DNA of 61,143 nucleotides, the filler included, from Hausera hauseri (lineage: Eukaryota): NCBI GenBank assembly GCA_046269625.1. It is 12 parts of 12 records of this genome, joined end to end, with 100 filler letters (N's around TTAATTAATTAA, not from the genome) between each part and the next. Parts side by side here need not be neighbours in the genome. Positions count along the whole stretch, not along the records: positions 35,322 to 40,041 come from JBJURY010462245.1; 11 more parts are not named here. The stretch is one strand, 5' to 3'. Both the position numbers and the translations under genes were made by a program. Shown here one piece after another: positions 10,761-56,900 of the stretch (position 1 is the first letter of the stretch; every line of letters starts with the position of its first letter). Under the pieces are notes generated by a model. It ran no database searches. It was not told the origin of the DNA and saw nothing but the letters and a program-made list of their open reading frames with translations.

Positions 10761-10785
10761 AATATCACGAAATACTTGCGAAAAA

Positions 10786-10920
10786 TACTGATGAAGAAAC
10801 ATTGCATGCGGGGAACTCGGTCACCCCGAATTTTGGGATTTGCCACAGCGAGGCTGAAGTCTTGGTCGCCCACCCTATACCATTGAGTCGGACGGCACCG
10901 TTCGCTGACGCCCCACGACA
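10786..10920 (+). repeat. Family-A LTR right terminus (motif Y), ends ...CACGACA
   Basis: Near-identical to the reverse complement of 31110-31245. Followed by the family-A leader and gag. Confidence 0.8.
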
Positions 10921-18239: not shown

Positions 18240-19462
18240 CTAAACACAACCAAATTGAAACTTGATTGAAATATGATTGGTTTACGCTATATTTATTTTT
18301 AAAATCTTTAATAAAATATTAATTAAAAAATATTTACATGATTGTTTTAAAAATAAAACCAATAAATTACACTTACAATTTTAAATTGTAAAAATTCGCC
18401 ATTATTTAAACAAAATCTTACGGTCATTTTTCAATTGAATTGTGCGCGAAAAGCAATAATTATGACACAGTATCATTGTTCTTTGATGGTGATATTTTTA
18501 GTCGAATGTCAATTACGAATTGTTATTTTTAAAACAAANNNNNNNNNNNNNNNNNNNNNNNNNNNNNNNNNNNNNNNNNNNNTTAATTAATTAANNNNNN
18601 NNNNNNNNNNNNNNNNNNNNNNNNNNNNNNNNNNNNNNATAATAGATGAATGGCTATTTTTGGGTGTAACTGGGACCTTGTGTACACAGTTTCGTTCCAC
18701 CTCATGTACCACGTGTGATGCGAATGGCAATAAAGATTCTTGAACTTGATACAGTAAGCTTTTGATACTGATTTGAGCTCTACTAACCAATACTGAGATG
18801 GATGACTTTACGTGCATCTCTTATTATTTGTTCCGAGGAACAGACATTTCACTTGGCCATATTTCTTCTGTGGACCAAGCGTCCTTTGTCTGAATTAATA
18901 TCTTTTACCTCATACTAATAGCGTCACCACTGGGAAAATGTCCTTCTCTAACAGCTGAGTTTCTACCCTGAAACAATCAGCGTTTCAACCAGGTGAACCA
19001 ATACCTTTAACTCTGAGTGGTGTTAATGTATCGAGTTGCTCCAACTTTACCAATACCAGAGTTGCTCCAGCTGCATGAGCTGTTTCTATCTGATTGAGTG
19101 AGAGTGCCATTGACCTTCAGCCATTTTACTGGGACTGTATTAAAAAGGCCCAGCCAGAGCCCTGATTTTATAGCTGAGCCTTTCCAAGGTCCCACTGACC
19201 TGATGGATATTACGAGGATAAATCAAACGTCCATGCCAGCACTCTCATTCAGAGCAGGGGTTGGAGCATGACTGTTTGCTGAAGAATGGCATGACTTCCA
19301 GCTCAGTGTGTCTAAGTGCGACATTTCACAGTTTGTTGGATAAAAGTGTAATATTCTTCTATCAAACAGTTACATAGATTTTAATTGACACGGAAACGAA
19401 TTTTACTGTAAATCTGGTTATTTTATAACAAATAATCAGAAACGTGCACAATATAATGTTTA

Positions 19463-20074
19463 CTACTGTGGACAAAAAGCAATGAGACTGATTAAATAGA
19501 ACACAAGAAAATACTCCATTCAACCAAATTTATTGTGTTTCCTTCAAAGTAATCCCTTACAACTTGAATACACTTATTTCAACATTTTTCCAGTCCATGA
19601 AACAGTTATTATACGCAGCTTCCGGTATAGCCTGCAAAGCGGCCAGAGAATTCTCTTGGATGGCTTCTGTTGATTCCAATCGATGTCCACGAAGTGGTAA
19701 TTTGAATCGAGGAAAAATGAAAAATCAGACGGAGCCATATTTGGCGATTACCGTGCTTGTGTTACGACATTTACTTGATTTTTGATGAAATACTGACAAA
19801 TAATTAAGGCTGTAAATAAAAGGCATAAATAATATTCTTTGGTGACTGTTTGGCTAGTTGGAAGGAACCTTTTGTGGACAACGCTACAGTGATTGAAGAA
19901 AACAGTCAACATGACCTTGATTTTTGACTTGCTTCGATGTGGTTTTTTCAGTTTTGGTTCACCTGCAGAACGATATTTATTGGATTGTTGAGCTGTTTCC
20001 AAGTCATGAGCATAGATCCATGTCTCATCGCCAGTAATTATGCATTTCATATCATCATCAGTCATAGAAAGCAT
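19463..20074 (-). mobile_element. Mariner transposon 3' part, truncated by an LTR insertion
   Basis: IITGDETWIYAHDLETAQQS, KSKIKVMLTVFF and a C-terminal DYFEG-like end. TIR-like TACTGTGGACAAAAAGCAATGAGACT at ~19464. Confidence 0.8.
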
Positions 20075-20883
20075 TGAGAAGACGCACGAGAGAATCCCAA
20101 ATAGTCCTTTAAAATTGTGATAAGTTTAAAGGTGTAGAATTTATTTGGTCCAACGACCTTAAACTTATGCTATCAATACTCAACTTGGACCCTCTCCTTG
20201 TCCCAAGTTGGATTTATTTAGTTACAGTATTCGGCAGCCTGTGGGTCTGCCGAAAGTTAGGAATGTTATTTATTTACTTTCTCTTAATGTGTGAGTTCGG
20301 TCGGGAGGTACACCGACGTTGCTCTCCCTTATTTAATGTAAATTAGACAACCGACCTGTATTAAAGGAAGGTATACCAAAAGAGGGATGCCCAAAATTTA
20401 CGTTATTTACGTCTATTGCAATACTATACCTTTTAATTATTTTATACTAAATCAATAAATCAAAACAAATGAAACTACCGGAATATTTAATAAAGTATTA
20501 AATCAAATAATCAATCAAAATATGATAAGAAAATATGAACAAAAGAAATAACAAAACATGACTTACAATTATCATATGTGAGATTCATGATGTATCAGAG
20601 ATCAGTCAAAAGGAAATTGTGTGAGTTGTACAAATAACGCCAGTATTTATAATAAAATTTTGTGTCACCATATGGAAGAAAAATTACAAAAAAATTTAAA
20701 ATGATTAAGGAATAAATCAAAAATAAATTTTTAAACATATGTCAATTATTGGAGAATCAAACATTTCATTTTCTCCACGCAATAAAATAAGCTTTTAAGC
20801 GTATGTCGATTATTGGAGAGTCGCTTTTAAGCACATGTCAATTATTGGATTTCATTTTCGAAATATGTCATTTATTCTGAACA
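20075..20883 (-). repeat. 3' LTR (~809 bp) of the integrase-FN3-exonuclease Gypsy element
   Basis: On the - strand the PPT AAGGAGGGAGAAGA is followed by TGTT at 20883. The LTR ends ...TCTCA at 20075, exactly where the mariner sequence resumes. TATA-like and AATAAA signals lie inside. Confidence 0.7.
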
Positions 20884-23800
20884 TCTTCTCCCTCCTTGGA
20901 TGATGCTGTCCGCAGCATCAAGGGGTAGGCTTCGATAATTCCATTTGAATCTTGATAATCGACGGATTTGATATGGAGTAGTCTTCCTTTCTTCTTAATT
21001 TGTCTCTTTAGGGTAACTGTTTCTGTTTTTGGGATTTTCTTTTTCTTTTTCGGAACTCTGGTTAGGTCAACGACGATTGATTCTGTGGAACTAGCTGCCG
21101 TTATTGGGTTTAGATTAATATAACAGTCTTTTATAGAAGTCAATGCTTGATCACCGGAAGATTGGGTGGATGTCGAGTGGGTGGCAATTGATCGGGTATC
21201 TGGAGATTCTTGTATTTCCATCGGAACTGGGAATTGTTCATTTTTGTATTCCGGAATAAAATTGTAAATTTTTAATATTGTTACTGCTTTCTCTTTTGTT
21301 CTTTGAGGATATATGTTACCATTGTACTGGGTAAAAATCTGTTTGGCCGTGTATGTTCCTTGAGGATTAATACTGTCATGGTATAACAATTCTCTAATTC
21401 CCAATAGATTGTTGTAATCATACCTGAAGGTAGTTGCAAGGGTGTGATAAACATCAATGCCTATGATTACTTTTCCAACGATCATTTTCCTTATGAAGGG
21501 TTCCTCGTGATACGAGTCCTTTTTCCCAATAATATGATCTTCTTTCAGTCCAGTTACGTGGCTGTTATAATTATCAATCTTTTCTCTAGGGCATAAAATT
21601 TCGTCCAAAACAATTCCGCCATCTAGATTCATCAAGGTTACTTCTACCGAAGTCATTTCAGTATTTCTGATAGGGGTGAATAGGTATATAGGATTTACGG
21701 CCATGATTAGCATCTCTTCTTTTAATATTATTGGTTTTCTTGTGAAAGATAGGCCTTGTTTTACGTCGATTTCTTTTGGTTTGGGAGTAGTGTATTTGGG
21801 AATTTCGTAATCCAAATGTGGTATTAGGTCTTTTTTTATAACTTCAAGGTAGATTATTGGGAACACTTCTTGACACGTTCGTATGGTAATTGTAGAATTG
21901 GCGTACAATCTAGGATCCAAACGAATTGTTACACGGGTTAAGACTTCCATCACGTCTGTAATTCCATTGGAGTGTGATTTGCTTTTTAATTGAATAGTCC
22001 CTTTTGCCACGGAGATATATATGGCATAAGTGCGTCCGGAAGTATCAATTAAATCGGAGAGGTTAATTGAACTCTGTCGTACTTTAATTATAAGGCTGCT
22101 CCTTTGCTGGACTGAATAACCTTTGAGATTGTTAGGGATAAAAACGGCTCTTCCATAGTAACAGTAGTCTTTGTTAGAGGTGGCCCATAAATTAGATAGG
22201 ATATGATTGTAAAATGAGTTGGGTCTTTCGGTCCTCTCTGCACCTTCTTGGACTAAAAATAAAAACATTAATGTTAGCCAAGCGGTTTTAGAAGAAGGAA
22301 TATTATCACGTTTTGATTGTTTGTTTTTTATATAGGTCGCTAGGAATTTTGCGGCCTGATTCTGGATTTTTATACAGAGACATACGGTTATGTCTTTTAA
22401 CGGTCGGGTCTGCCGCTCTTGATCGGTAAGTTTTTCAACTTGCCGTTGATTTTCTAAGAAGGGCGCGCTTATGTCTCGTAACGATACCTGGGAATCTTCC
22501 CTTAAAATTTTTAATTGCTCTAATATTTCCCTTGTTCTACTTTGTCGTCGCTTTATTTTAGAAAAGTAAATTACTAAAGGTAAAAGTATAGCTAGTAATA
22601 TTAAAAGGACACATAGTAAACTGATTATCCAAAGATGTTTATTCGAGGTTTGTTCTGGTTTCTGTGTAGTTGTCCTTGGTATAATCCTAGGAGTAGTTAT
22701 TGTCTGTTTTAAAGTCTTCTCTGTACGAAAAACTGTTCGTAACTTTTCTCCTTCGTCATCTAATTCTGTTATGACGACTTTATAATTTGTGTCAGTTTTT
22801 AGGAACATACACGCAGATGTCGGTTCTTCAGGAGTTAGAACTCCTTCACTAATCACTTTATGGTTAAGATGACATTCGAATTTTATGTTTGTATTCTTTA
22901 GGTCAGGCACTGTAATAACTAATGAATGACTTGTTGGTTGGATAATTATATCCAGTTCTTTAATATCCTTCTGGGATTCCATCATTGGAGTAGTTACTAC
23001 TGTTTGTAATGTGGTTGATGTACTTGGTTTTGTTACTGAGGCAGTTGTTTTTCTTGTTGAAGTAGGGGTTACCTTTATCGGAGATCTGACTATTATCTCT
23101 GGACCGTCTGCTGTTTTTGACCATGTATAGCCGTTATACGTGGTCCAGTAATATATCATATACTGTTTATCAAAAGCGATAGGACAACACATATATGGAT
23201 TTCGGTAATTCGGTTTACAATATGTGGTATTAGTGCCATCGGATATTTCATATTGGAATGTTACATACCTCGTGATTTGTACTTCTGGCTCTGCTGTTAT
23301 ACAAGGTCCATTTTTCATAATTTTCGAATAAAATGAGATAAGGAAGTATGGTCGATGGAAATAATGTGTAGTACCAGGGTATGAGAAATATGTTCTATAA
23401 CTCTGGTCGCTTTTTCCTGTTGCGTATTGAATCCTGTACGTTTCTCCGAATGAAAGTCCACAGCAATTATGTATCGAGTGATTATAATATAGATCACAAT
23501 TTTCCGGTGTCGCTTTTTCCACTATAGGTAATTTCGATATGAATATGTGTATATACTCGTCTATTGTTAAGTTCCGATTAGCCGTAATCTTTATACAAGG
23601 GTATTTTCCAACTTGTACGGCCTTGTAATTTACATCTAAGGACTGAGCTGACACGTTAGTCACTAAAATTAGCATCATAAGTGTTATCATTAGCGATGGA
23701 CTAAAGTTTTCATTTCTTATTTTTAACTCTATTGGTGCAGGCTTGCATCTATTCACATGAACTTTTATTGGGTTCATCTTACCTCTTTTATTTTTGTTTA

Positions 23801-25234
23801 AGTAGACGTTGGTTTCGTCTACTTTCTGAATCATGTATGGACCTTTATATGGTCTATCTAGTTTTGGTGTCTTTCCTTTCTTACTTAAGGGTGTGTGCAG
23901 CATGACTTTATCTCCAGGTTTGAAGTCATGTGGCTTAGCCTTTTCGTCGTAACGACTTTTATATTCTTTCTGACATATTTTTGTGTGTCGTGAGGCCAAA
24001 CTCCATACGTATCCTAATTTTTCCTCTAGTAATTCTTTATATTCCAAGTCTTTTAAATGAGATACAGGCGTTTTGAAGTCCAAATCGATCGGCATATGAG
24101 TATCTCTAAGATACATCAGATAGAAGGGAGTTTCTTTTGTTGCCGGGTGGATTGTGTTTCTAATAGCGAATAAGCATGGTTTGATATACTCATCCCAATC
24201 ATCCTGTCTTTCATTTACCATAGTGGCCAACATGTTGGTTAAGATTCCGTTAAATCTTTCCACTGTTCCATTCGTTTGAGGATGATACGGGGTAGTTTTT
24301 AGTTGTAGTATGTGGAATATTTTCGATATTTCTGCCATAACTTCTCCTGTGAAGTTTGGTGCTTGATCCGTCAATAGTTTGGTTGGTGCACCATAATTAA
24401 AAACGATTTCTTCGACGAAAGCTTGAGCGATGGTTTGGGCCTTTTGATCAGGTATTGGTATTACAACTGGCCATCTAGAAAATAGATCGACAAACACTAA
24501 CATGTATTTATTTCCATTAATCGTTAGAGGCAGTGGTCCCAAGATATCCATTGCTGAAAATTCCATAGGGGCTGGTGGACATTCTATTGGTTTGAGAGGG
24601 ACTCTGATTTTTGAACCGGTGTTCTTTCTAGTGGCACAGACTGGACAACTCTTACACCAGTCTTGAACATCTTTAGTCATAGTATACCAGTAGTATTTTC
24701 TTTTCAGTCTTCCTAATGTCCTCTTTACTGATTGATGTCCTCCCATCATACCATCGTGGTATTGCGTCAACAACAATTTAATATCTTCTTGAGGAACGAC
24801 AACAACTAATTTTCCTTTATAATTGTAGTGCAATATGTCATTTTTTGTCTCATAATTTTCAGCAAACTGTTTCAGGTGAGTGTAAAGATTGATATCACTC
24901 GGTACCGTTTTCCTTTTTAAATACTCCTTGATTTCTTTGATTTGTTCGTCATTTTGTTGTTTTCGTAGTAACGACTCTTCTTGTTCTGTGATACTCCATA
25001 TAGCTGCTATGACACCAGGTTTATCTGTAGATTCTTCTTCTGATTGACCTGTATCTTCTGGTATTCGTGACATGTAATCGGCGTTCGCATTTGCTTTCCC
25101 CATTTTATATTCAAATTTAAGATCATACGGTTGGAGTAACATAGCCCATTTCATTAATCGACTATTCGGGTTTTTGTGATTTTTCAGCCACTGTAATGGT
25201 TTGTGATCCGTATAAACAACGATGGGTTTGGTTT
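20868..25234 (-). CDS. Gypsy Pol C-terminus (RNase H end, integrase) fused in frame to a signal peptide, FN3-like repeats, Thr-rich stalk, TM helix and DEDDh-exonuclease-like domain
   Basis: The frame is open to the contig edge (YTDHKPL). Motifs in order: ANANADYMSR; HHCC (YHDGMMGGH...CKSC); DILGP, TDQAPNF, VERFN; GPY; SLMITLMMLILVTNVSA; CGLSFGETYRI/CPIAFDKQYMI/FLKTDTNYKV; LWIISLLCVLLILLAILLPLVIYF; VEVTLMNLDGGIVLDEILCPREKIDNYNSHVTGLKEDHI. Confidence 0.9.
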
Positions 25235-28269: not shown

Positions 28270-29408
28270 TTATACTATGACAATTCCGTTTTTCGTTATT
28301 TCAACCTCGGCATCAAATACACCGTAAATGTACATCATAGTAGATTGCTCCAACGCTTTAGCAAAGTGAACCTTCAATCTCAGGTTTCCTTGCTAAAGTA
28401 GTTGAGGCTGTTCAACGACATAATCCGGAGCCAGTAAAAAGGTGAAGAATGGATAGGTGGACTTAAACAAATCCATCGATATGCCATTGTTGATGTTTTT
28501 CGTTCATCAAACCCAAGTTGCGCACGATAGATTGCATATATGTGCAAACATAATCGCCGGTCTAGAAATCCTGCTTGTATGTCTCAACGAAATCCGCATT
28601 ACGATCCAGAGTGATGTAATTCACATTGCTGTGGGTAAACGTTTCCGAATCGGTGGTATAACTTCCCCTTTTGTTGAACAGTCGTTTGAAATGTAGCAAG
28701 CACAAATTTCGGCAATTGCATGTCGCCAAACAGTGCATCTTTGTACAACATAGTTAAACCTTTGGGTGTGGTGTAAAAGACGAGTTCTGTGCGTTGTATC
28801 GGGTAACAGGCATTTAGAGTTTCCAAACCCAATCGATGTTCCATGAGCACAGCTTGTTCTACCTTTAATCGACGTACGCATAATCGTGCCTCGGTAATTT
28901 TCAGTATGGGTTTGAGACTTGCAACGGTGGTTTTCAAACAAAAGACATTGTCGCTGCGCTTGAGCCGAATCATGGCTTTAACACCAGGCAGCAAGTATTT
29001 CGACTGATCCAAAAAGTCGAAGTACAGCAGCCGAAACATTGTAAGTGCTTTTGATTCAGCCACTCATGGCTTACGGTTTGCTGCTGTGTCGTCATATTCA
29101 ATGGTTTTCGTCAAATGAGTCGTTTTCGCCTCAACACTCTAATTTAGAGCCATTTTAATGAGTGCATTGATACAGTATAGACTGGTGTTGCCTTCGATTT
29201 GGCGCTGTTTAGAGTCAGTGAAGCCTCCTGGAACAGTGTAATGAAAAGGTAATTGGCCGGCGTGACAGTGTCTGTTGCAGTGAGAACCGTTGATGCATCC
29301 TTTTTAACAATGACTTTTACATAGAGTAGCCTATCGTTCAAATCCAGGTATTCATTGTCCGATGCCATAATGTTGAATTGAATGTCAATGTTATCGTCCG
29401 TCGAGACG
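28270..29408 (-). pseudogene. Polinton/adintovirus major capsid (double jelly-roll) protein, frameshifted
   Basis: EYLDLNDRLLYVK, PANYLFITLFQEASLTLN, QSKYLLPGVKAMIRLKRS, KITEARLCVRRLKV, ACYPIQRTE, QLPKFV, and C-terminal GNLRLKVHFAKALE...VFDAEVEI, typical of animal Polinton MCPs. Adjacent to the protease. Confidence 0.75.
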
Positions 29409-31239: not shown

Positions 31240-32135
31240 CAGTCACTTTCGGATATGATAGAACGAATTTTGTTCTTTTAATTTGTGCAGAATTTGTCAT
31301 TGAATTTTTTAGTACTTCTGGAATATTCTCTTCTTCTCGTTTGCGTTTTAATTCTACGTCTTTCAAAGTTCCCGCTTTTCGCGTTGTTCTCAAGTTTCAA
31401 ACTTTAATTCGCTCACTTTTTACCAATAGCCGACCCAAATGGCTGATAAACTTCGTTGGATGTGTCGTGGAATCCGCGTGGAATTGCCTGGTAAAATGGA
31501 ATTTCATCGCTGTAGTTTATACCAGGTTTCTTCTTGTTGTTTATCGGTTTTTCGATTATTCTCACTTCTGCATATTTACGTTTCTCCTGTACAGCCGCCA
31601 ATCTCCTTGCCATTATCAGCTGCCTTTCTTGTCCTTTACGTTTGGCCTCTTTTTCTTGGATATTTGTCAGCCTAGCACGTGCCCCATTCAACATATCAAT
31701 TTCATCTCTTGCCATGTCAATTGGATCAGGTTTGGCTGGTCCACTCTCTGGTCCGACGTCGGTATCATCTTGCCGTATATTATCTATGTTTGTAGTTCCT
31801 TCTGTATCAGCACGACTTTTATCAATCAATAAATTGTACTGCTGTACGCATTGTGATGCTATACGTCCAATTATATCTGATATAGTTCGCCATTGCATCG
31901 GCAAAACCTTTCCTAAATGTAACAGTTTTTTATTTTTATCTTGCGTCCTTTCGGTCTTTCTCACTGTCGGTGATAACCATTCGTACCATTTGGATTTGCA
32001 CTGCTGTGCTGATTTACGATTTAACAATGGGGTTACTCTGGCCCACTGATTTGTGTCGTATTTTATGATGGTCGATTTAAGAACTTCATCCTCAACATTT
32101 GTCTAAATACCACCCTTCCACAAACGACTCGTATT
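31240..32135 (-). pseudogene. CDC5L: Intronless CDC5L (Myb-repeat splicing factor) N-terminal fragment
   Basis: KGGI*TNVEDEVLK, QWARV, RKSAQQCKSKWYEWLSP, LLHLGKVLPMQWRTI, ESGPAKPDPIDM, ARARLTN, INYSDEIPF, PRGFHDTS, KRTKFVLSYPKVTD. Contains stops and frameshifts. Confidence 0.88.
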
Positions 32136-32199: not shown

Positions 32200-33090
32200 T
32201 GCCTCTACTTAGCGTTTTTTTGTTGATTTGTATAAACCGATGTCAACAATGCGGCTCTTTGTTAATCCATCAGGCATGTGTGCCTTCCTGCTGTATACCT
32301 CAACATATCTCGGAACCTTACTGGGATCAGCAAAATTGATGCCGATGCATACACCAACGATTACTGAGTCCGGTCGCCGGTTGCTAACGACCATTGCTAC
32401 TGGCTTTTTGCAAACAAATGTGATACTCTGTTCCTGATTGGCCGTGCGACTATTAAGTACATTCTGAGTACAATTTCAACAGCCGATCTTCACTGAATGA
32501 AACGTCGTTCGTCTGTTCACAGTGTTTGCAAAAATTAACGGGAATATGACCACATAATGGATCATAAAGAAAAACGCTATCCTGAGTCTTGTGCTGTTTT
32601 TGTTGACCTTCAATGGTTGTTGTTGGACCATCGGTAATATGTTTAAACACAGGTGTGCGATCAAAACAATGATATAAATATGAATTTCTGAATGAGTCGC
32701 ATAGCAAGCACAACCCATCAGAAGTAGCGACCATAGATACTGTAGCAGTGCGACTACCTCCGTTATTGATTGTGCGCCATGGAAAGATGATAGCATCCGT
32801 AACTTTGGTAAGACTGCCTACCTATATATCGGACATCTCAAGTGATACTGGCCCAGCACCACAGTGACTCTCCGCTACCAGATAGGCAAATCTGTCCGGC
32901 CCAACAGCCAAGCAGAACAGTATGTTGTTGTGTGCGCAAGCGGCCGTCAGTAAACCTGGTTGGGAGGGAACAAATGCCCATCTGGTTAGAGTTAGCGGAG
33001 GGTCGTTACCAGTTGTATCGAGAAAGTAGTTGGTATCGACGTACAGATCATCAACACCCGTTTGCAAAACGGAGCAGAACATGTATCCGT
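32200..33090 (-). pseudogene. UBR4: Intronless internal UBR4 (p600/purity of essence) fragment
   Basis: LTRWAFVPSQPGLL...AVGPD, IPVNFCKHCEQTNDVSF...LLKLY and DSVIVGVCIGI...VPRYVEVYSR...SRIVDI align by eye, in order, with UBR4 LCQWSEV..HPGLV, FPIDFFEH..QLTDVEFGG.DLLQVY and MVMTGMRIQIG...APSYIEIFGR...SRWFDF. Confidence 0.65.
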
Positions 33091-33399
33091 GATTATTATT
33101 AGAATTTTTAAAATTTGAAACGGATGGAAATAACAGCATTACCTTTTTGAAAATATCCATATCCGAGTGCCACAAATTCTTCTGACACCATTTGTTATTC
33201 TTTATGCTGTCGAATAATTTCAATGACCCTTGTATTTGATTTGTTGTCTCGTCCTCGGCCCATTTCTTGAGATGTTCAGTACTTTGTTATTGAAAGCAGT
33301 AGATACTTTGTTATCTTAGTATTATTGATCATAAGTATAAGACTTTGATAAAAAAAATTAGAAATTCGAAAATTCGGAGAAAGCATATAGAAATGGCAA

Positions 33400-34612: not shown

Positions 34613-34712
34613 GAAGAGTCGGACCCGATTATCGATCCGACGCGGCGATAGCGGACGCCCGGCCGTGCCCGACCAAATGGGCCAGAGGACACCGGCCGCG
34701 ATGGGCACCACA
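34613..34712 (-). repeat. Family-A LTR left terminus (motif X)
   Basis: GC-rich ~100-bp motif homologous to 41279-41377 and 50341-50445. Confidence 0.85.
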
Positions 34713-35221: not shown

Positions 35222-35593
35222 NNNNNNNNNNNNNNNNNNNNNNNNNNNNNNNNNNNNNNNNNNNNTTAATTAATTAANNNNNNNNNNNNNNNNNNNNNNN
35301 NNNNNNNNNNNNNNNNNNNNNGTGGAAATTTGGCATACTTATAAGGCTTTTCTTCAATAGTTATCGACGACACTATACGTATCTCCTAGAGTAGTATAAG
35401 CATGGAGTCTTACGAGTTCCGAACTTCCTATCTTTAGGGTTTCTTATGCCTTTATTTGGTCTGATCTCTATTAATTTTCCTGTTTGCAAGTCGATTGCTA
35501 TGTTTGGTAACCTTTTCAATAAATTACATTCTAAGACTACGTCGTCGGTTAATTGTTCCATAACTGCAAATTCATGACGAAAATTCTGTCAAA

Positions 35594-36160
35594 CTATTTG
35601 GACTTCTGGGTTCCATTTAAACATCGGTTTCGACATTTGGCCAAAAGCTCCCGTACTCCCTGGATTTTTTGTGTATGGTGGGTATAATTGTCCCTTAACG
35701 ATTGAGGTATTGAATTGTTTTTAATGTAAGACATTTCAGACCCTGTATCGATTAAGGCATAAACTTCCCAATCTTCGATAATAATTTTGGCGAAGGGCCT
35801 TTCTTCTATCACCGTTCCGAAGCAGTTTGATGCATCCATTGAGCGTTTTGCCGCCGATATCTTATGTCCGTTGATTCGGATTTCTGGGGAGGATACTATA
35901 TTCTCTGCCAGTTGCCTTAACTCTCCGTTTGGGTATAATTCATTGTTTTCGATGTTTAAGTTTTCTGCTTCGTGAGTACTGATTAATGATTTTCGATTGT
36001 TAGTATGTATTTCGGTAGTCTGGAAGGTTTTTAATCTTGGATTGTCCCAAACTGGTGATCTAGTTTCTATATTTCGAGGTTTTCTCGGGGAATACAACAT
36101 CCGGGGATTATCTACGGGCCGTTGGTAACACATTTTCCGTAGGATCCTGTAGCGTTTCAT
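35594..36160 (-). CDS. Retroviral-type aspartic protease region of a retroelement polyprotein
   Basis: RPFAKIIIEDWEVYALIDTGSEMSYI. Confidence 0.75.
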   Translation of the reverse strand: MKRYRILRKMCYQRPVDNPRMLYSPRKPRNIETRSPVWDNPRLKTFQTTEIHTNNRKSLISTHEAENLNIENNELYPNGELRQLAENIVSSPEIRINGHKISAAKRSMDASNCFGTVIEERPFAKIIIEDWEVYALIDTGSEMSYIKNNSIPQSLRDNYTHHTQKIQGVRELLAKCRNRCLNGTQKSK

Positions 36161-36177
36161 GCATTCATACGAGTCTT

Positions 36178-38320
36178 CTACATTAATTGTCCTTTTATAT
36201 ATTTCCGTCTGGATGAACTCATGGATCGTTTGTCACAGTCTTCGTAGACTGTAGCAGTCGGAGGTGACATAGTCAATGGTGCTTTAATGACAGAGTACAT
36301 CTTATGTTTGTTTATTCCTGAAAGTACTTCTCCTCCATTAGGCTCGTCATCACCTGAATTATTTCCTCGTATATTAGGTTTTGTAAGTTTCTGCTTTCGC
36401 AAGGATATAGGCCTTCCTTTACGTTTACGATTATAGTAACCGACATGGCGTTCTACGTCCGATTTCCATCTATTTTCTTCGTATGCCTTTAAGAATTTTC
36501 CAAAGGGCGTTCTGATTGCAGTCAGTATCTTACATGAAAATCCAGTCAATGTAAATATTTCATACCCATTTATTACTGCTAGGATGACTGCTTTAATCAT
36601 TTGTATCAGAAAATATATCGCTAAGAAACCGGATGCGGCTTGGCCAAAAATCAAAAATCTTCTCCAAATTTTGTAGAGTATTTCTGTTGTTACTCGCTGA
36701 TAATGGTTTACACCGAGTAACGATTCCCATTTGGCCTGATGTCGTGTATCGTCTACTACGGAAGCCATGGCTCGGTTTAATTCATGTGTTCTTTGTCGCG
36801 GAAAAGCAAGGAATTGTCTAAAGGCTTCGATTTCCTTAGGCCTGTATATGCCTTTTGACGAGGTGTCTTGAAATTCATAGTCCATAATTCCTTTCGCAAG
36901 GTTTATGCCTGTTAATTTATTTGGGGAGGCAGTAATGCCTCCATTTGGCAAACTAACCCCGTCTGTTTTACTACGTCTAAACATGGGCTCTCCTAAGCTT
37001 GCCTCACAATCCTTAAGGATAGTTGGTTGGGTTGCATTATCCAGTAACACTCTCGTCAATGGTGTAGCCAATCTGGGAATATTCTGATAGATGACAGGTA
37101 GTTCCTGAATGCAACGTTTTTCGTCCACGTTAATGGATACATCTCTCTTTTCGCATTTATAGGTCAGCAGTACCTCGCCCGTAACCCGACCGAAAATTCC
37201 CTCTGTTATAGGAATTATTGGAGAAGCCAATTCTGGGTTGGCGTATATAACGGACAGTTTCGTCCTCATGATTTCGGTATCTAATTTTCAGTCGTTAGTT
37301 ATCATTTTGTGATATAATTCAGCTATTCCGACTAGCCTCTTGTAGTAGAAGTAATCGTCTCTGTTTTTCAGATAATCCTCAATTCGGACATCCTGCGTCT
37401 CTAGTTTGTAAGTCTTTGCATTTATTTTCGTTTCTGCGACGAAAAATGCCTCATAGTTAGTAGCGAACATCACTACGTCACAACGAGAGACAATCTCTTT
37501 TTTGATAAATCTTAGTCCATGTTGATCCGAGATCAATATAGTGGATGTAGGATGTTTTGATACGTTCTTGCGTATCCTTGAATTGGTATCCGATTTATTT
37601 ATATAACGTTTTCCGGTAGTTTCATTAAACTTCAGTTCCTTAATTTTAATAAAATTACGGCTTCTTCCAGAAGGTGGTTCCCATATTATAACGGAATTTC
37701 TAAAAGCACAGGTTCCATCTTGTAAGTGGCACTTACAAGATTTTCAGTGTATAACTTAGTGACACTATGAAACATTACTTTCTGTGAATGCATCTCCGAT
37801 TCGTAGAAATCCACTACTACCACATTTGCTTCCAATCCTTTTCCAGTATCGTATTACGCTCCGTAACAATGTCCGTTATGCATGTCTAACCTTCCCGCCA
37901 CTATTTTGTATGCCCTAATTAAATGTCCTTGTTGAATTTCCAATTGCATATTGCCCAGTTGTACTCTTCCAGTTTCCTTAGCCTGTTTGCAGTGCTGGCG
38001 TTCTAGGTTTATTGGAATAAGAAGAGTGGTTGGTTTGATTATTGAGGAATGTCCGTATACTAAACCACAGTGAAAAATTCTACGAGATCGTCTCAGCATA
38101 CATTCCATCTCATCTAGCGATATCAGGTCTTGATGTTGATACAAGAAGTAATTTTTCTCTCTTGTTTCCAACTTGTGCGGTCTGGAATCCTCGCACACTT
38201 CCAGATCCATTAGGGAATGTCTTTGTCCTAGTTTAAACTTATCGCAGTGGTAGACGGTTACAGTGCCTATGTGCTTTATTAGCATCATTAAGGTGAGTAA
38301 GCTAATTAGCCAATTTGATT
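36178..38320 (-). pseudogene. Chuvirus-like (class III-type) envelope glycoprotein, frameshifted
   Basis: Signal WLISLLTLMMLIKHIG; VYHCD...SLMDLEVC; CMLRRSRRIFHCG; CKQAKETG; VAGRLDMHNGHCYG; GEVLLTYKC; CIQELPVIYQN...TPLTRVL; GIYRPKEIEAFRQFLAFP; TM FGQAASGFLAIYFLI...INGY. Confidence 0.8.
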
Positions 38321-39990
38321 TATTTTTCCGGCATCCAACATCCGCCGTTGTCAAATTACGTAACATTTTGTCGAATTTATTACCGGTCCGTCTGTCTTCT
38401 TCCTTGACAAACAGTCTTAACCAATTTACTTCACACGGCAGTCTTCTTGCCACTTTCCGTGCTAGGCTTATAGCCTTATTGATTTTATTCTCTCGATTGG
38501 GGTTTATTTTAATATCTAAGTTTAGTAATACTTTTCTCAATTCCTCATTGATGTTTTCTACCATAATCTTTTCGATTACCGATTCATCGGTTAAGTTACT
38601 TTTCGACAGCTTAAAACGTGAACTTCTCATCATTTTAGCTCCTTCGAAAATTATCTTTTCTTTGTCATCTAATACGTCACCTCGAAGGCTCGAATAATTT
38701 ACGATTCGTATTAAATTCTTCATTAGCTCGCTTAATTCCTCATTGTTTGTACTGTTAGTCGGAATCGATATCTGCCTCAGTTCTCTAATCATTTCCCCAT
38801 TATAGTCAACTTCTTCTCTCGTTTTCTTAGGCCTACCAACTGGGCGTTTCGGCCTTTGGCATTTAGTGGTTAGTTCACTGAATGGTACAAAATTTATATC
38901 GTATTGTTCCTTATCTTTATCTGTTTGTAAATACTCGAAATACATTGCAGCGTCTCGGAATCCCATGATTTGTCCTACGCATTGTCCCGTCTTGGCTTTA
39001 CGTCTGGCCTCTTCTTTTGTCTGTTTGTTAGCTATTATAACTACTATCCGATTTGTTTCGTCGGGGATAATCACGACATCTATTAATTGTTCTAGGTCGT
39101 CAAGTATTCTACCTCTAAAGTAAAACCTAGAATTTAACTCGCCTGTTCCTCCATTATTTAATAACCATTCTCTTACGTCTCTCACATAGAAATAAGTAGT
39201 TAATTTCCATTCTTTTTCAGCCATCCACTGGTATGATATTATTACTTTCATCGCTACCTCAGGTTTAGCCCTCAAGATTTTAGCGTATTTCTTTATCAAA
39301 AGCTTCGGCACCGTGCTATAAATCGTATTCTTACTAGATAAATTAGTTAATATCGGAATAAGTTGTCTTAACTTACTTTAAGTAATGTTTACATTAATTA
39401 GCTCGATTAAATCCGTTTCAATTTGCGCTGAATCCAGTATCATTCCACATTGAATCTCCTGTTCTGCGTGCATGTTTCTGTCTCATTTAGTTGTACTGGA
39501 GTCACGGGGTTTTCGGCAAGCATTGCGTCGAAGTATGCATCCCATACGGGTTCGTTTCCAGCATCTGGAAATCCATATTCTACTGTATTCGTTTTTTCAC
39601 GTTTTCCCTAATTTCTTTTAATCTTCGTTGTATTTCTTTCATCTGCGTGGTTTGGAAGCCTATTCCATTTCTACAGGCATACTGAATAATTATCAGTAAT
39701 TCGCCTAATTCATTAGAATTGATGAATCCCTTTTGGTGATAATCAGTTATTTCGATAATTTTATCTCTTTGCCATCTTTGTACGAATTCTTGCTTGTTTT
39801 TAATTTCTGATTTGGTAAAAGCATATTTGTTTCGGTAGCTTTCGAACTCTTTTGCTAGATCATCTAGTCTCGTTGCTCTTTGTTTTGTTCTGATGCACGT
39901 TTCTTCTACTTGCTGTAATTTGGGAATCAATTGCCTCATCTTTTTGTCATTAATTTCCACCATTTCTACCAATAAGTAGGCGGGATCCAT
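38321..39990 (-). CDS. N-terminal polyprotein region with ubiquitin-like segment and AT-hook
   Basis: VRDVREWL...SRFYFRGRILDDLEQLIDV resembles the Ubl motif RLIFxGKxLxD; RPVGRPKK is an AT-hook. Same ORF (37854-39311) as the start of the glycoprotein. A helical ORF lies upstream at 39580-39990. Confidence 0.5.
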
Positions 39991-40141
39991 TGCGTCCTAC
40001 AATTTCTTTACGAACTTACATTCCTGAAAACTAAGATGCCTNNNNNNNNNNNNNNNNNNNNNNNNNNNNNNNNNNNNNNNNNNNNTTAATTAATTAANNN
40101 NNNNNNNNNNNNNNNNNNNNNNNNNNNNNNNNNNNNNNNNN

Positions 40142-41278: not shown

Positions 41279-41377
41279 GAAGATCGGGTCCGCCTACGGG
41301 CCCGACGCGGCTGCAGCGGACGCCCGGCCGTATCCCACCAAATGGGCCAAAGGGCACTGGTCGCCGTGGGCACCACA
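41279..41377 (-). repeat. Family-A 3' LTR start (motif X) preceded by PPT
   Basis: The - strand reads GGGAGGTGA|TGTGGTGCCC just downstream of the family-A pol end. Confidence 0.85.
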
Positions 41378-49678: not shown

Positions 49679-50247
49679 TGAGATACCACACTACGATGTG
49701 CGAATAATAGCCCCTTAGATTGCCTGGACACATTGACAATAAAGTAGAAATCAAGGAACTTAGGAGACGCGTAACATTCCTGGTAGTGTCGGAATTACGC
49801 CCAGAAATAATAGGTGGTGTCACCTGCAAAAGGCATTTGGAATAGAATTGGGATAGAAACGCACGGACACGGAAACATTACAACAAGACATATGCAGCCT
49901 GGAAGCAAAATTCGGCCTGAAGATGACTAACCAAGAACGAGTCAACAGGACGAAGAAAACTCTTCAGGTGAGTGACAACAAGGAGCTATTCATCATCGTA
50001 CAAAAATACCCAGAGGTATTCATGGCCGACAAGTAGAACATAGGGTGCACACCTCTCATCAAACACCGAATAGACAAGACAGAAGCGCCGATTAATATTA
50101 AACCTCATAGGCAAGCGGTAAACCTAGAGAAGAAAATCGACCAAACCATCCAAAACCTGTAGATAAACGACATTATCAAGCCATGTAACTCAGCATGGAA
50201 TATACCAATGATGTGCGAATGGAAGAAAGTCAAGAACGATGTGAGAA
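49679..50247 (+). mobile_element. Gypsy family-B protease/RT-start fragment
   Basis: Homologous to the reverse complement of ~51920-52490. Confidence 0.8.
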
Positions 50248-50340
50248 CCTATTCGGATGTATAAGAGCTGATGAATTTCTCAAGTTTATGGCCCATTTTA
50301 TTAAACACTCAAATGCATCGAAAGATGTGCCAACTTTCTT

Positions 50341-50445
50341 TGTGGTGCCCACCGCGGCTGGTGCCCTTTGGCCCATTTTGACTGGGTTGGGCCGGGCGTT
50401 CCTTTATCGCCGCGTCGGATTCATAGTTTGGTCAGATTCTCTACC
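50341..50445 (+). repeat. Family-A LTR motif X, third copy
   Basis: TGTGGTGCCCACCGCGGCTGGTGCCCTTTGGCCCATTT...GGCCGGGCG...TCGCCGCGTCGG. Confidence 0.85.
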
Positions 50446-51046: not shown

Positions 51047-53837
51047 GTTCCTTCCGAGTTATACAGTATCCTTTTTCATGGTTGTTCATTGCGTGTGATC
51101 CATACGCAATCACTCTCTCGCGCCCCAAACTATCCTTCTGTGATAGTACCGCTCCAATTGTGTCGAAGCTTGCGTCCGTATCGAGGATAAATTCTCTGTT
51201 GAAGTCAGGGAAACCTAGTATTGGCGGTGTGGCTAAGGCTCTTTTCATTGACTCGAAAGCCTTGTTACATTGCTCGGTCCATATTAGTTTCTTGTTATTC
51301 AATCCGCATAGTTGCTCCAATATCTTGGCTTTTGCTGCGTAACCTTGGATAAATCTTCTGTAATGGTTGCAGATCCCTAAGAAGCTTCTCAAATTCTTGA
51401 CACATTTTAGTTTCTCAAAGGACTTTATTGCTTCCAGTTTTGCTGGGTCTGTCTGTATCCCCTTGTCATTCACTATATGCCCTAAAAATTTTAATCCTTT
51501 CTTGAGGATGTGACATTTCTCGGGTTTTACTGTGAGATCTGCTTCCCTGATCTGCTGCAATACCTTTTATAGTATTCTATAATGCACTTCAAGAGTCTTG
51601 GAGAATATTAGTATATAACTAGATATACCACTGTTTGTTCAATGTTTTCTAGTACTTTATTCATTAGTTTGTTGAAGGCACCCGGAGCTGCTGCTATACC
51701 GAATGGCATCCTGTTGAAACAGAACTGCCATAATTTGGCTGAAAACGTCGTCTTTAATTTGGAGTCTTCCTCTACCTTGACTTGATAGTATGCATTCCCT
51801 AGGTCGATTGAAGTGAAAAACGTGGTCCCGTATAACCTGTCCAATATCTCTACCACGTTAGGCATGGGCAAGGCCTCCCGTTCTGTTATAAGATTCAGCT
51901 GTCTGAAGTCCAGGAATATTCTGACATCGTTCTTGTCTTTCTTCCGTACGCATATCATTGGTGTATTCCATGCTGAGTTACATGGCTTGATAATGTTGTT
52001 TTCCCATAGGTTTTGTATGGTCTTGTCGATCTTTCCTCTAGGTTTACTGGTTGCCTGTGAGGTTTGATATTATCGGCACTCTTGTCGTGTCTATTCGGTG
52101 TTTGATGAGAGATGTGCACCCTATGTCCCACTTGTCGGCCACGAATAATTATGGATATTTCTGTATAACATTGAGTAGCTCTTTGTTGTCACTGATCTGA
52201 AGAGCTTCCTTCGCCCTGTTGACTCGTTCTTGTTTTGTCACCTTACGACCGAACTTGGCTTCCTGGTTGCATATATCTTGCTATATCTTCCGTTTCCAAG
52301 CATTTCCATCCCAGTTCTATTCCGAACGCCTTTTGCAGGTCCACACCACCTATTATTTCTGGGCATAATTCCGACACTACCAGTAATGTTACACGTTTCC
52401 TTAGACCCTTGATTTCTACATCTGTTGTCAGTGTGCCCAGGCAATCTAAGAGGCTATTTTTCGCACATCGTAGTGTGGAATCTGATTTCTCTATATGTGT
52501 GTTTACATGTTTATCCACTGTCTTTTGCTCATGACGTTTACCCTGACCCCGTGTCCGACAAGCAATCATCCCATCTATCTTGTATCTTTAATTTGATTCC
52601 TGGTCGTCCATTAAACTTCTTCTATGATACCTGTTCGACATACAATTCTTCGAGCGTAAAGATCTGCGTATCGCTCCCACTTTCCTCCATTCCATTGAAG
52701 AACACTTACTGGAAATTTTCCGTTTTCATAAATTTCCGTACTTTTCCTGTGTCCTTTTATCCATTACTATATCTCCGTGTCCCCTTCTACTTGATCCGTC
52801 TATACTGTTTGATATACTACTACTATTATACATAACGATATTTTGGGAGACTGAATCTATTGTAGTGTTCCGATTTGCTCCATTTCTATCCCCCGTTTTC
52901 TGTACAGATTATCCCGAACCTTCTTTTCGCTTTGCATATATCCTACCCTGGTTGTCTTTTCCCCTCAAGCCTGGTGTAGCACTCCTTTTCAGCATGTCCC
53001 CTATTGTGACATCTCGCACAGCTAAGGTTTGTACAATATCGTCTGATGTGCCCTAGCTGACCACATCCGTAGCATCTTATTGGTTTTCTTTCGGGACACT
53101 GCCTGCTTATGTATCCTTGTTTTCCGCATCCAAAGCATTTAATTGGTCTCCATGTAGTGCAAGTTTTGCTCGTATGTCGTTCTTTCTGGCATGTCCAACA
53201 CATTAATTTGCTAATTTGGTGGTCTAATTGGCGTCATGTTGATTCCCTGAACTGGTTTCCTGATATTCTGTGCTGCCACTTCCTGGTAGCTTCTTCTACC
53301 GGACCCGGATACTCTTTGACCGTGTTAACTTCTGTCTTAATCTTTACTTCGTGTGTCTTCCGTATTTTCACATTTATGGTTTCCGCGTCTCGTTTGTAAC
53401 TGAGGCAAATTTCTCTTCTCATCTCTCTGTTTTTACGACATTGGAACAATAATTCCTCTTTTAAAACCTAGCGTAAAAGATTGTGCTTCATGACTTTATC
53501 TAGCAGTTTCTATATTTCTTCGAAGTAAGCCTCCGGTTCCGCTCCATTCATTCTGTACTCAAGCGCTTCTTTTAGATCTTCACACAGCGTTGAGGTCGGG
53601 CGCAATCCTTCCGTAGTCGGTTTAGGTATCCAGTTATCTTCGCATCTACTGCCTCGTATCTTTGTTGTTCTTCTTCATCCAAGAGGCATTCAACCATGAT
53701 TTCCCGTTTTGCTGCCGGGATGTTTATATATTTAAAAAAGTTTTCACATCCTTTAATGAACTTCTCCACGTCGTCGCCTTTCCTGAAATGGTTTGGTAAC
53801 AATTGATTCGCAAAAATGTCCACTGTGGAGTAAGTCG
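51047..53837 (-). mobile_element. Gypsy family-B element: gag with four CCHC knuckles, protease, RT, RNase H
   Basis: CWTCQKERHTSKTC/CFGCGKQGYISRQC/CYGCGQLGHIRRYC/CARCHNRGHAEKEC; LSDTG; DFRQLN, IDLGNAYYQ, RMPFG; LRSFLG, FILDTDAS, YCITRKEL. Confidence 0.9.
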
Positions 53838-53937: not shown

Positions 53938-56900
53938 AGAAAAGAAAGGCACGTCTCTTAAGCTTACCAGGACAGGGAGAGGACCTTATGAAGTTACCAA
54001 TATTACGCCGGCCACAGTCTATATAAATAAAAACGGCAAGGAAGAGGTTATATCGATTCAAAGAGTAGTTAAAATGGAGATAAAACCCGCCAAACGTTAC
54101 AATTTGCGCTCGAGCAAAGCGGGTAAAGAAAAGAAAACGTCGACGATAGTGACCAGACCAGTATCATACGTGCGGATAATCCTTGCCTTATCGTTAATCG
54201 CTTCATATGTGCCGAAGGCAAAATCGATGACCGAGACTGAAAAATTACAATATGCAGCAAGACGGAAGGATATCCAAAACTTACAATCACTTTGAGTACA
54301 CGATATGGATTGGAGAAAACCATGTGCATGGCTCGAAACAAGCGAACCTATTCAGAGCCACGTAAAATTTCAAATAATATTTATAACCGGGAACACGATG
54401 AGAACGTGCGATTTTCCGTACGGAGTTCATAGGAGATGTTGTAATTTGGATTTTGGACAAGCCCACGGATACAGTTTTTAGAGGTTTTATTCCTATCAAT
54501 TTGGAGCTCAAGCCTACATAACTACGGAACTCTCAGTAAGAATGCCCCAACGAAAGGACGCAAATCAGGCTAAGACAGACAAAACAATTCTAAGCACGGA
54601 TCCATTTAAGAGGCTTTTAGATTACAACATTGTTGGGATTCACAAGGACTTGAAGAACCAGTGTATTTGAATTGATACCAAAATCCAACTGCCAGGAGAC
54701 AGAGAGATTTCTGTCCAATTTATACCCCTGAACACTTCGATTCCTAAACCAGAGTATTGTTATTTGGCCAGACGACGATCTACTGTGTGCTGTGTACTGC
54801 AACTAGGACAGGAATATCAGTTGCAACTAGACTTGTATAATACGTACCCCGGAGAGCAAAGTATCTATTTACGGGTATATCGCCCAAAAACGGAATATGA
54901 AAGCTTCCGTTTCCAACCACTACGGGAAGACCGTCTACTGCTCCGAGTACAACTTTCACTACTACGATCGTCACTTCGGACGAAATGCCAGTAAGCATAC
55001 CGGTTAAAATTTTGGCAAAAAGCGATAGAATTCTATTTTACGCTGAAGAGACGTTAAATCGAGACGTCAAAATTGAATGTCGCACCCTGCACACCAACCA
55101 AGTTGTGATCCTGAAAAAGAATAGTCAAGAAGCTAAATGTAAGTCCTTACGGCCACAACATGTCTATATAATCCAAATTACTGCGAGGGGTAAGAACCCT
55201 AAAACTTTTACAGTACGAACTCTTGGCAATAAAGTTGAAGTAATGCCATATAAAGTGTCAGTACTCAAAATGTGTTCACCACGGAAAGTTCTATTGAGCC
55301 GAGTAATTTACCGATAATAACTATGTTCAGTTTGTCAATTTTCGTTCTTGTCATAATAGCAGCAATGATTTTTCTAGTTCCCAAAAATTGTAATAAACGC
55401 TGTAAAAATCAAAATGGAGATAAATGGGTAAACGGGCACCGAGACGGACCTTATGATAGCATAACCTGATAACTACAGATCGGGTTAACCTATCATCAGA
55501 CATAAAAAATGTTTTGTTTCAAAACGATGATCTGTCTTAGGATTACTCTTTATTTTTATTTCAGCAGAGTAAGTATGACCGAGAAGGCAAAGAATTCATC
55601 AGTCAGTCCCAATTTCGATATCGATAATTTCTTGCAGAAGCACGTCGCTGTCCTTAAACCATTATCCAAAAATCTATACCGACAAATTGGAGAAAATCTG
55701 AAAACCCAGGCTATATAGAGTTCAACCAAGAGAGTAAAATGCCAAATGGGCTAAAATTGGGTTTAGAAGAGAATCGACTGGTCTGATTATATGCTATGAG
55801 AAATCCCAAGGATGCACGGGCATATATTTTAAGAGACCTGATTCCATATGAGCCGACACATAAGCAATTGTACATACATGTCGCTGATGGAGAAATTCAA
55901 CACAGGATCGTAGGACATTCCTGGAGTACTCAGAAGGGACAGCAATGTAAGTTTAGCACTTACGAGCTATGTTGTTATAGCCTCATGAATTATGCTCTGG
56001 AATTCAGGATCGCGGACCTTCCGACCAAAATCATGATCGAAATGACGTGGCGAACAGAAGTAATGAAGCCGCCACCACCGTTACTATATGTACAGAAGCC
56101 ATCGGAGGATGAGATAGAGCAAAATGGAGAATCTTACAGATTAGTTCCAGATGGCCGAAATACTCGGATATTGGCCGTAAACTATTGAGAAAAAAATGAT
56201 AAATGGTACTTTCCGATTGAGGTTTCCATCAGAAATGCTAATCGAGAGGAAATCATAAACAAAATAATAGCACCGCGGGCCAGAATAAAAGATACTTTTC
56301 CCGACGTTACTGGAATCACGAGGTCACAGCTCAAAAAGGGAAAAGTTTTTTGGAAATCCAAGAAGATATAAGCCATTGCTTATATGGATACGTGGTTACC
56401 GGATTTCGAGTGCACAAAGCACTGGAACGACTAGGAATTAGGCACGAATACATAGCCGGAATTCGAGAATTGAGCCGGAACCCAGCAATAGTGAGCCAAG
56501 TGGAAAATACATTGATGCGGAAAAGAGGTTGTCTGCTTCCGTCATCATCCCGCGAATCGCAATTTAAGATGATGCTAGAAGCCATGAGTGGCGATCGATT
56601 CAAATTTCCTAAGCTAATGACAGCAAGTCAAAGGACCACATTTATAAAAGATATCTATAACTCGTTACGATGGATTCACGAATGGAAACCCAAAAGTCCC
56701 ATACAGAATGCGATATCTGACAACAACCCCAAGGCACTAATACAGAAATTCCAAAAAGGGTTTAGTAAATACCCTAGTTATCGACAGATCGAAACCCGTG
56801 AACATAACCGATTCCGAATAACAGTCTATAATAACCAAACGGAAGTTCCAAGCAATCAACAGAAACCATCAACCAGTAAAGCCCAAGCAGAAGTGACAAT

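What the first reader, a model, noticed from the sequence alone, without database searches (positions are those of the whole stretch)
35322..40041. Chuvirus-like glycoprotein upstream of the protease in a polyprotein with Ubl and AT-hook
Chuvirus-like glycoproteins captured by LTR retrotransposons are known (e.g. BEL/Pao elements of insects), usually as a 3' env. Here the order is helical ORF, Ubl-like, AT-hook, internal signal, G, aspartic protease, so env lies 5' of pro-pol with no recognisable gag in between. It may be the 5' half of the same kind of giant element as the FN3/exonuclease cassette, since both use an internal signal peptide, but the contigs are unlinked.
Basis: partly seen in the sequence, partly recalled or inferred. 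Interest (0 to 1): 0.72.

Follow-up and report, generated by a model that had tools for sequence, protein, structure and literature searches.

The report
Decayed retrotransposon with envelope before protease
This is a broken copy of a highly repeated element, likely a flatworm retrotransposon, whose virus-type membrane-fusion gene sits in front of its protease gene; that order is already published for flatworm elements, and only the extra stretch ahead of it, which possibly holds a ubiquitin-like and a DNA-binding domain, looks undescribed.

Summary
Observation largely confirmed; the main surprise is already in print. The 4.7-kb contig encodes, on the minus strand: helical ORF, ubiquitin-like candidate, AT-hook-like motif, helical region, internal signal peptide, chuvirus/gB-type glycoprotein (Pfam PF24664, E 1e-41), membrane anchor, retroviral protease. 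The copy is dead: six ORF pieces, at least seven breaks. It is not a nested insertion: thousands of divergent contigs from two runs cover all 30 bins, and some bridge the key joints. Env between gag and pol is published for gB-type errantiviruses of flatworms, nematodes and bryozoans (PMC13524379) and for planarian Burro elements, which also carry a SUMO-like domain ahead of env (PMC6431247). The glycoprotein shares a motif found only in Schmidtea rows of the published alignment. Two natural gag-G-protease-RT-integrase polyproteins turned up in the database. Still open: about 577 codons ahead of the signal show no capsid or zinc knuckle, so gag probably lies off the contig; the ubiquitin-like call rests on a pattern and one borderline Atlas hit. 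A link to the FN3/exonuclease contig is unsupported at family level. The scan noted this gene order (e1-8578005) and a helical+Ubl module (e1-9249965) before, on other DNA.

The parts
39580..39996 (-). ORF A, 138 aa, probably helical/coiled-coil; first Met codon at 39990, two codons after an in-frame stop and 51 nt from the contig end
   Evidence: no significant family match; gag profile E 2.5
39378..39579 (-). Broken linker between ORF A and ORF B (stops in all three frames in this copy)
   Evidence: bridged by contigs of both runs, and other copies differ here
39030..39254 (-). Ubiquitin-like candidate (ORF B residues about 42-116); unconfirmed
   Evidence: Atlas ubiquitin cluster 0.90, rank 7 of 30; model with strand-strand-helix-strand-strand-strand order, pLDDT 61; no Pfam, PDB sequence or fold match
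38823..38855 (-). Single AT-hook-like basic motif with GRP core (ORF B residues about 175-185)
   Evidence: 71 of 20,000 shuffles; no Pfam hit
38343..38819 (-). Helical region of unknown family (ORF B residues about 187-345)
   Evidence: predicted helices at low confidence; no match
38259..38309 (-). Internal signal-peptide-like hydrophobic stretch
   Evidence: hydropathy 1.81; PF24664 match starts here
36658..38258 (-). Chuvirus/herpes-gB-type glycoprotein ectodomain; broken by stops at 37854-37856 and 37288-37290 and a frame break near 37735
   Evidence: PF24664 E 4.9e-11, 6.1e-34, 1.2e-41; motif shared with Schmidtea errantiviruses
36562..36657 (-). Transmembrane anchor of G (ORF D residues 211-242)
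   Evidence: hydropathy up to 2.35; 581 codons after the signal, against 588 and 567 in P0017 and P0060
35807..36561 (-). Basic cytoplasmic tail and long linker (anchor to protease Asp about 271 codons); frame break near 36210
   Evidence: bridged by divergent contigs
35373..35806 (-). Retroviral-type aspartic protease, catalytic Asp codon at 35749; frame break near 35690 and stop at 35589-35591; contig ends 51 nt later
   Evidence: PF00077 E 4.2e-6; profile hits to both halves

Best explanation
The contig is a broken, internal piece of a highly repeated element, likely a flatworm Ty3/gypsy retrotransposon of the GAG-ENV-POL type, in which a chuvirus/gB-type fusion protein lies between an accessory block and the protease, with gag probably beyond the 5' contig end and RT-integrase probably beyond the 3' end. 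In working copies the region would likely be translated as one precursor. The internal signal would thread G into the ER and host signal peptidase would cut behind it. The membrane anchor would stop transfer, so the accessory block in front and the protease-RT-integrase behind would both stay in the cytosol. The element's protease would then release the enzymes from G's cytoplasmic tail. Pol would thus reach a budding particle tethered to Env, and trimeric G would fuse the particle with a neighbouring cell. The AT-hook-like motif would bind AT-rich DNA or RNA, and the Ubl-like domain would act as a protein-interaction module, as proposed for Burro cargo. SHOWN: gene order, G family, signal and anchor, protease, very many divergent copies, joints shared among copies, decay of this copy. 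INFERRED: host, gypsy pol, position of gag, single frame, processing, particle formation, roles of the accessory block.
For: G and protease families. 16,299 contigs of run X1 and 1,021 of run X2 laid; 30 of 30 bins covered in both; only 0.02 and 0.08 of what was laid runs on into unlike sequence; most copies are under 95% alike. Among 16 pieces shown of 17,448, one X1 contig spans the G-tail/protease-ORF joint (35874-36351, 80 differences), one X2 contig spans helical region-signal-G start (38227-38630), and three (two X1, one X2) cover the A/B gap wholly or largely. At two stop codons nearly all depth differs from this copy, and other copies differ beside four broken places. 2 of 120 listed proteins (P0017, P0060) are natural single ORFs gag-knuckle-signal-PF24664-anchor-protease-RT-RNase H-integrase, with the same signal-to-anchor length. 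The motif RFIK, present in this G, occurs in 3 of 229 rows of the published gB-type alignment, all Schmidtea; TNY closes the aligned region in 6 of 6 Schmidtea rows and here, where 90 occurrences of TEHP mark the insect-type rows seen (comparison by eye). Published GAG-ENV-POL order in Platyhelminthes and Burro anatomy.
Against: No gag, RT, integrase, LTR or primer site is on the contig, so gypsy membership is not shown; no genome is held and no laid piece spans the whole stretch. About 577 codons precede the signal without capsid or knuckle, against 139 and 280 from knuckle to signal in P0017 and P0060. This G does not align pairwise with P0017 or P0060, so they show the architecture, not the family. 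No close protein relative was found. At the G/protease break only about half the local depth differs from this copy (6 contigs), so a natural frame change there is not excluded, although no slippery heptamer was found. X1 may be the source sample. One G cysteine of the Schmidtea pattern seems absent in this copy (by eye). Host phylum rests on the G motif and on unchecked scan notes.
Confidence: 0.8

Rival explanations
1. ORF A is the true start of a separately initiated accessory-Env-Pol gene, and the family has no capsid gene of its own (or ORF A/B is an unrecognisably diverged Gag); it would borrow a capsid or move in Env-coated vesicles.
For: Met two codons after an in-frame stop, with purine at -3 and G at +4 (sequence); no capsid or knuckle in about 577 codons; an unchecked scan note describes a helical+Ubl module with its own start directly before a protease (e1-9249965).
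Against: Only 45 nt of contig lie upstream of ORF A; that end is still repeat-covered and 139 X1 contigs run over the ends; a separate upstream gag ORF would fit the same data; published GAG-ENV-POL elements had gag found within 5 kb upstream.
Confidence: 0.12
2. The contig is the 5' half of the giant element whose RNase H-integrase-FN3/exonuclease half lies at 18639-25234.
For: The window's protease pieces score best against proteases of that integrase's closest relatives: ranks 1, 2, 4 of 57 (Mann-Whitney p 0.002, but the three are related). Both use internal signal and anchor stretches.
Against: Scores of 98-112 are well below the 156-221 those three give each other (decay lowers scores by an unknown amount). 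0 of 12 closest relatives list PF24664; the two with long sequence ahead of the protease (P0007, P0011) show no G there. No DNA similarity between the contigs. Read coverage of that contig was not obtained.
Confidence: 0.15
3. G is an endogenised chuvirus gene, or a piece of another element, inserted by chance next to an unrelated protease and host-gene scraps.
For: G fits a profile named after negative-strand RNA viruses better than P0017 and P0060 do (E 1e-41 against 2e-20 and 1e-14); G and protease are in different frames in this copy; this genome is full of gene-capture debris.
Against: Accessory block, signal and G start share one 507-aa ORF; all bins are multi-copy with bridging contigs in two organisms; no nucleoprotein or L gene on the contig; closest motif match is to Schmidtea retroelements.
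Confidence: 0.04

Closest known systems
GAG-ENV-POL errantiviruses with HSV/gB-type Env of Platyhelminthes, esp. Smed_errantivirus_1-6, cysteine class C1a (Chary and Hayashi, PMC13524379; read abstract, first parts of sections 5, 6, 9, all of 14, passages, supplement 1 rows and supplement 2 parts; figures and the GitHub sequences not seen)
   Same: gB-type Env 5' of pol; shared G motifs (RFIK, terminal TNY, most cysteines, by eye); multi-copy
   Different: This copy is dead; gag, RT and integrase are not on the contig; the text read describes no Ubl or AT-hook ahead of env. The listed Smed spans (14.5-18 kb, likely with 3-kb flanks) leave room for a similar block, which I could not check.
Burro / GYPSM1 giant gypsy elements of planarians (Arkhipova and Yushenova, PMC6431247, section 7 read in full; Grohme et al. 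2018 not held, known only through this review)
   Same: Env in frame between gag and protease; Ubi2/SUMO-like domain and a helical (BCL2-like) domain upstream of env
   Different: Burro env is described as gypsy/F-type (with hits to mononegavirus fusion proteins), here gB/chuvirus-type; no MATH, BIR or ankyrin on this contig; BCL2 not supported here beyond a faint by-eye likeness; no AT-hook reported for Burro in that section
   Same: Single ORF with internal signal, PF24664, anchor, then protease; signal-to-anchor length 588 and 567 against 581
   Different: Capsid and zinc knuckle lie directly before the signal; short anchor-to-protease linker (68 and 107 against 271); no pairwise similarity of the G proteins
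Anakin (Pao elements with chuvirus glycoprotein, mosquitoes; PMC7642597, passages) and Jingchuvirales-derived EVEs (PMC10084718, abstract and Results)
   Same: Same Pfam class of glycoprotein beside retroelement domains
   Different: BEL/Pao, arthropod; env at the 3' end (recalled; the passages read state this for Roo, Tas and Cer-7); the RFIK motif occurs in no row outside Schmidtea

Membership tests
GAG-ENV-POL gB-type errantivirus (Ty3/gypsy) | HSV/gB- or chuvirus-type Env with signal and membrane anchor | tested here: met
GAG-ENV-POL gB-type errantivirus (Ty3/gypsy) | Env directly 5' of pol, same strand, same element | tested here: met
   protease follows G; joint bridged by divergent copies; only the protease part of pol is visible
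GAG-ENV-POL gB-type errantivirus (Ty3/gypsy) | Gag (capsid, zinc knuckle) upstream of env | tested here: inconclusive
   none on the contig, but the contig ends 45 nt upstream of ORF A
GAG-ENV-POL gB-type errantivirus (Ty3/gypsy) | Ty3/gypsy RT-RNase H-integrase | not testable with these tools
   contig ends after the protease; no genome held
GAG-ENV-POL gB-type errantivirus (Ty3/gypsy) | LTRs and primer-binding site | not testable with these tools
   both element ends are off the contig
GAG-ENV-POL gB-type errantivirus (Ty3/gypsy) | Multi-copy dispersed family | tested here: met
   16,299 and 1,021 contigs laid, mostly 80-95% alike, 30 of 30 bins
Burro / GYPSM1 | F-type (gypsy/baculovirus/paramyxovirus-like) env | tested here: not met
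   G matches PF24664 over model positions 6-603; no F-type family listed
Burro / GYPSM1 | Ubi2/SUMO-like domain upstream of env | tested here: inconclusive
   Atlas ubiquitin 0.90 and Rad60-SLD clusters 0.87-0.88; no Pfam or fold match
Burro / GYPSM1 | BCL2-like domain between Ubl and env | tested here: inconclusive
   helical region in that position, but no sequence or fold match from a low-confidence model
Burro / GYPSM1 | Giant ORF (about 5,000 aa) with gag, MATH, BIR, ankyrin, dUTPase | not testable with these tools
   only 4.7 kb available; none of these domains on it
Anakin (BEL/Pao + chuvirus G) | BEL/Pao pol | tested here: inconclusive
   protease fragment hits only PF00077 at E<=10; RT absent
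Anakin (BEL/Pao + chuvirus G) | Env 3' of pol (position recalled) | tested here: not met
   G lies 5' of the protease
Non-retroviral chuvirus EVE | G beside chuvirus nucleoprotein or L, or solo in host DNA | tested here: not met
   flanks are a multi-copy accessory block and a protease

The most novel reading that the evidence does not exclude
A capsid-less enveloped retroelement: a self-started accessory-Env-Pol polyprotein in which a ubiquitin-like plus AT-hook module takes the place of Gag, binds the genome, and stays membrane-tethered by the signal anchor, while Pol rides on the cytoplasmic tail of a gB-type fusogen.
Probability: 0.08. Interest if true: 0.8.

Novelty: new member of a known kind. 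Interest (0 to 1): 0.3.

Why it matters
It extends the flatworm-type GAG-ENV-POL group to a very abundant family in two further organisms and suggests that gB-type elements can carry a Burro-like accessory block ahead of env, so Ubl cargo and env type may be swapped independently. Env in the middle of the precursor implies that Pol is made behind a membrane anchor and could be packaged through Env, a step I found untested in the text read. If gag were truly absent, it would be a new way to build a retroelement particle. As it stands, the order is known and the copy is dead.

Tried and rejected
No genome held. Homologue searches with G found nothing: 0 of 2,542 longer and 0 of 5,704 similar-length candidates (word-based, weak evidence). 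The 355-aa N-terminal part had 0 hits in 1.84 billion representatives. Viral and metagenome contig scans: 19 and 119 pattern matches, none confirmed. Single-sequence folding of the 355-aa part failed (pLDDT 34.5); its fold search gave best Z 5.1, uninformative. The isolated Ubl model gave no Foldseek hit at E<=0.001 and best Z 5.7 to unrelated folds; no ubiquitin among the rows shown; with pLDDT 61 this neither supports nor excludes the fold. The whole-region Atlas search scored under 0.8. PDB sequence searches of protease, Ubl and helical parts: nothing meaningful. Weak Pfam/NCBIfam hits (Maelstrom, DNA ligase, MerR) judged chance. No slippery heptamer at the G/protease break. No RNA holder listed. 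Troyka considered from the first fifth of PMC12440569: nothing links it. A BCL2 reading of the helical region rests only on a short by-eye likeness to the BH1 motif (recalled) and is not claimed. Sacco et al. 2022 and Grohme et al. 2018 could not be read. Searches for a Ubl or AT-hook ahead of a gB-type env returned only the Burro review as relevant, judged from listings; figures, GitHub files and Repbase entries were not seen and may hold it.
Full report
Setting. The window is a string of 12 unlinked contigs joined by N spacers, and the finding is one whole contig, 35322-40041. No genome is held. Neighbouring contigs carry gypsy relics and eukaryotic gene fragments and say nothing about linkage.

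Anatomy. Six minus-strand ORF pieces cover 4,307 of 4,720 bases: A 39996-39580 (138 aa), B 39377-37854 (507), C 37743-37288 (151), D 37287-36178 (369), E 36232-35594 (212), F 35588-35373 (71). Pfam PF24664 (Monjiviricetes_fusion) matches the end of B (model 6-155, E 4.9e-11) and D (340-603, E 6.1e-34); C plus D read through one stop with X gives E 1.2e-41. One hydrophobic stretch precedes G (B 357-373) and one follows it (D 211-242). E holds a DTGS protease (PF00077, E 4.2e-6) and F its C-terminal part. The copy is broken in the A/B gap, at two stops and one frame break inside G, at the G/protease-ORF joint, and twice in the protease. It is dead.

One element, not a nest. Two public runs hold the stretch. 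Laying their contigs at 80% likeness placed 16,299 (X1) and 1,021 (X2, another organism); in X1 517 were 99%+ alike, 2,183 were 95-99%, 6,156 were 90-95% and 7,443 under 90%. All 30 bins are covered in both runs and only 0.02 and 0.08 of laid sequence runs on into unlike DNA. Of 16 pieces shown (17,432 more not shown), a divergent X1 contig spans the G-tail/protease-ORF joint, an X2 contig spans helical region, signal and G start, and three cover the A/B gap wholly or largely. Nearly all depth differs from this copy at two of its stop codons, and other copies differ beside four broken places, which suggests one long reading frame in the family; at the G/protease joint about half the depth does so. 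Limits: X1 may be the source sample, depth is no copy number, and no piece spans the whole stretch.

Which G. No close protein relative was found. The published gB-type alignment in supplement 2 of PMC13524379 has 229 rows. The motif RFIK of this G occurs in 3 of them, all Schmidtea errantiviruses. TNY closes the aligned region in all 6 Schmidtea rows and in this G; the 11 other TNY occurrences lie elsewhere; insect rows seen mostly have TEHP there. By eye the start of the domain, most cysteines and an insertion before the RFIK motif also agree. This was a visual comparison, not a computed alignment. It points to the planarian GAG-ENV-POL group; the flatworm host is inferred from it and from unchecked scan notes.

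The order is known. PMC13524379 states that elements of Nematoda, Bryozoa and Platyhelminthes carry gB-type env in the order GAG-ENV-POL, and lists ENV-GAG-POL in two mites; nine flatworm elements are tabulated, with 1 to 215 copies. PMC6431247 section 7 describes Burro with env in frame between gag and protease and a Ubi2/SUMO-like domain further upstream. Independently, 2 of 120 proteins listed by a search with the neighbouring integrase are single ORFs gag-signal-PF24664-anchor-protease-RT-RNase H-integrase; their signal-to-anchor lengths (588, 567) match the window's 581, though their G does not align pairwise with ours.

What is left open. About 577 codons lie between the contig end and the signal, with no capsid or knuckle; in P0017 and P0060 the knuckle is 139 and 280 residues from the signal. 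Gag most likely lies just off the contig, fused or as its own ORF; ORF A's Met follows an in-frame stop and could be a real start. The Ubl candidate has the right strand/helix order in a pLDDT-61 model and a 0.90 Atlas hit to a ubiquitin cluster at rank 7 of 30, behind unnamed clusters, but no Pfam, PDB or fold match; I put it at about 65%. The AT-hook-like motif is single, differs from the recalled canonical core at one position, and arose in 71 of 20,000 shuffles. The helical region has no match.

Link to the FN3/exonuclease contig. The 12 closest relatives of its integrase (45-51% identical) list no PF24664, but most are cut at the N-terminus; two with long upstream sequence show no G there. 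The window's protease ranks three of those relatives 1st, 2nd and 4th of 57 (63 of the 120 proteins had no usable protease and were left out), at scores of 98-112 against 156-221 among themselves. This fits a related clade, not clearly the same family. Read coverage of that contig was not obtained.

Mechanism. From the topology, a precursor would be inserted at the internal signal, cut by signal peptidase, and anchored at the end of G, leaving the accessory block and Pol in the cytosol; the protease would free the enzymes from G's tail. Pol could thus be packaged through Env. The signal-peptidase reading was prompted by scan note e1-9373409 and is untested. A programmed frame change before the protease is a minor alternative: no slippery heptamer was found.

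Verdict. A real, decayed member of a known kind, with a possibly undescribed accessory block. Searches for that block in print showed only the Burro review, but figures, GitHub sequences and Repbase were not seen. Interest 0.3.

Noticed in passing
window 20868-25232 (minus): Open 1,454-codon frame: RNase H end, integrase, then in frame a signal stretch, threonine-rich/FN3-like ectodomain, membrane anchor and a further domain that looks exonuclease-like by eye (no Pfam support). Its 12 closest relatives carry varied post-integrase cassettes with anchors, ankyrins and extra proteases.
   Followed up: partly
window 53938-58000 (plus): Decayed second post-integrase cassette of similar build (weak tblastn to the 1,454-codon ORF, E 0.007 and 0.14), with a RING-like cysteine pattern at 57455-57778 (by eye).
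   Followed up: no
window 28599-29063 (minus): 154-aa piece that looks like a Polinton/Maverick major capsid protein (recalled pattern; not searched).
   Followed up: no
window 4488-9553: Contig made of a 15-nt tandem array that translates as pentapeptide repeats.
   Followed up: no
window 34615-34712, 41302-41377, 50341-50440: Shared 76-100-bp element head (80-84% alike) next to different host-gene-like pieces; fits the LTR gene-capture notes on this genome.
   Followed up: no
window 3573-4214, 10377-10886, 16308-17580, 31413-32102, 32822-33286: Host-gene fragments: PLAC8-like, SNF2-type, protein kinase, Myb-domain and G-alpha-like; several lie in or beside gypsy relics.
   Followed up: no
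window 49681-50254 and 51914-52483: Inverted duplicate of a protease-RT stretch within one contig, 84% alike.
   Followed up: no
window 19748-20125 (minus): Mariner-like transposase fragment (by eye).
   Followed up: no
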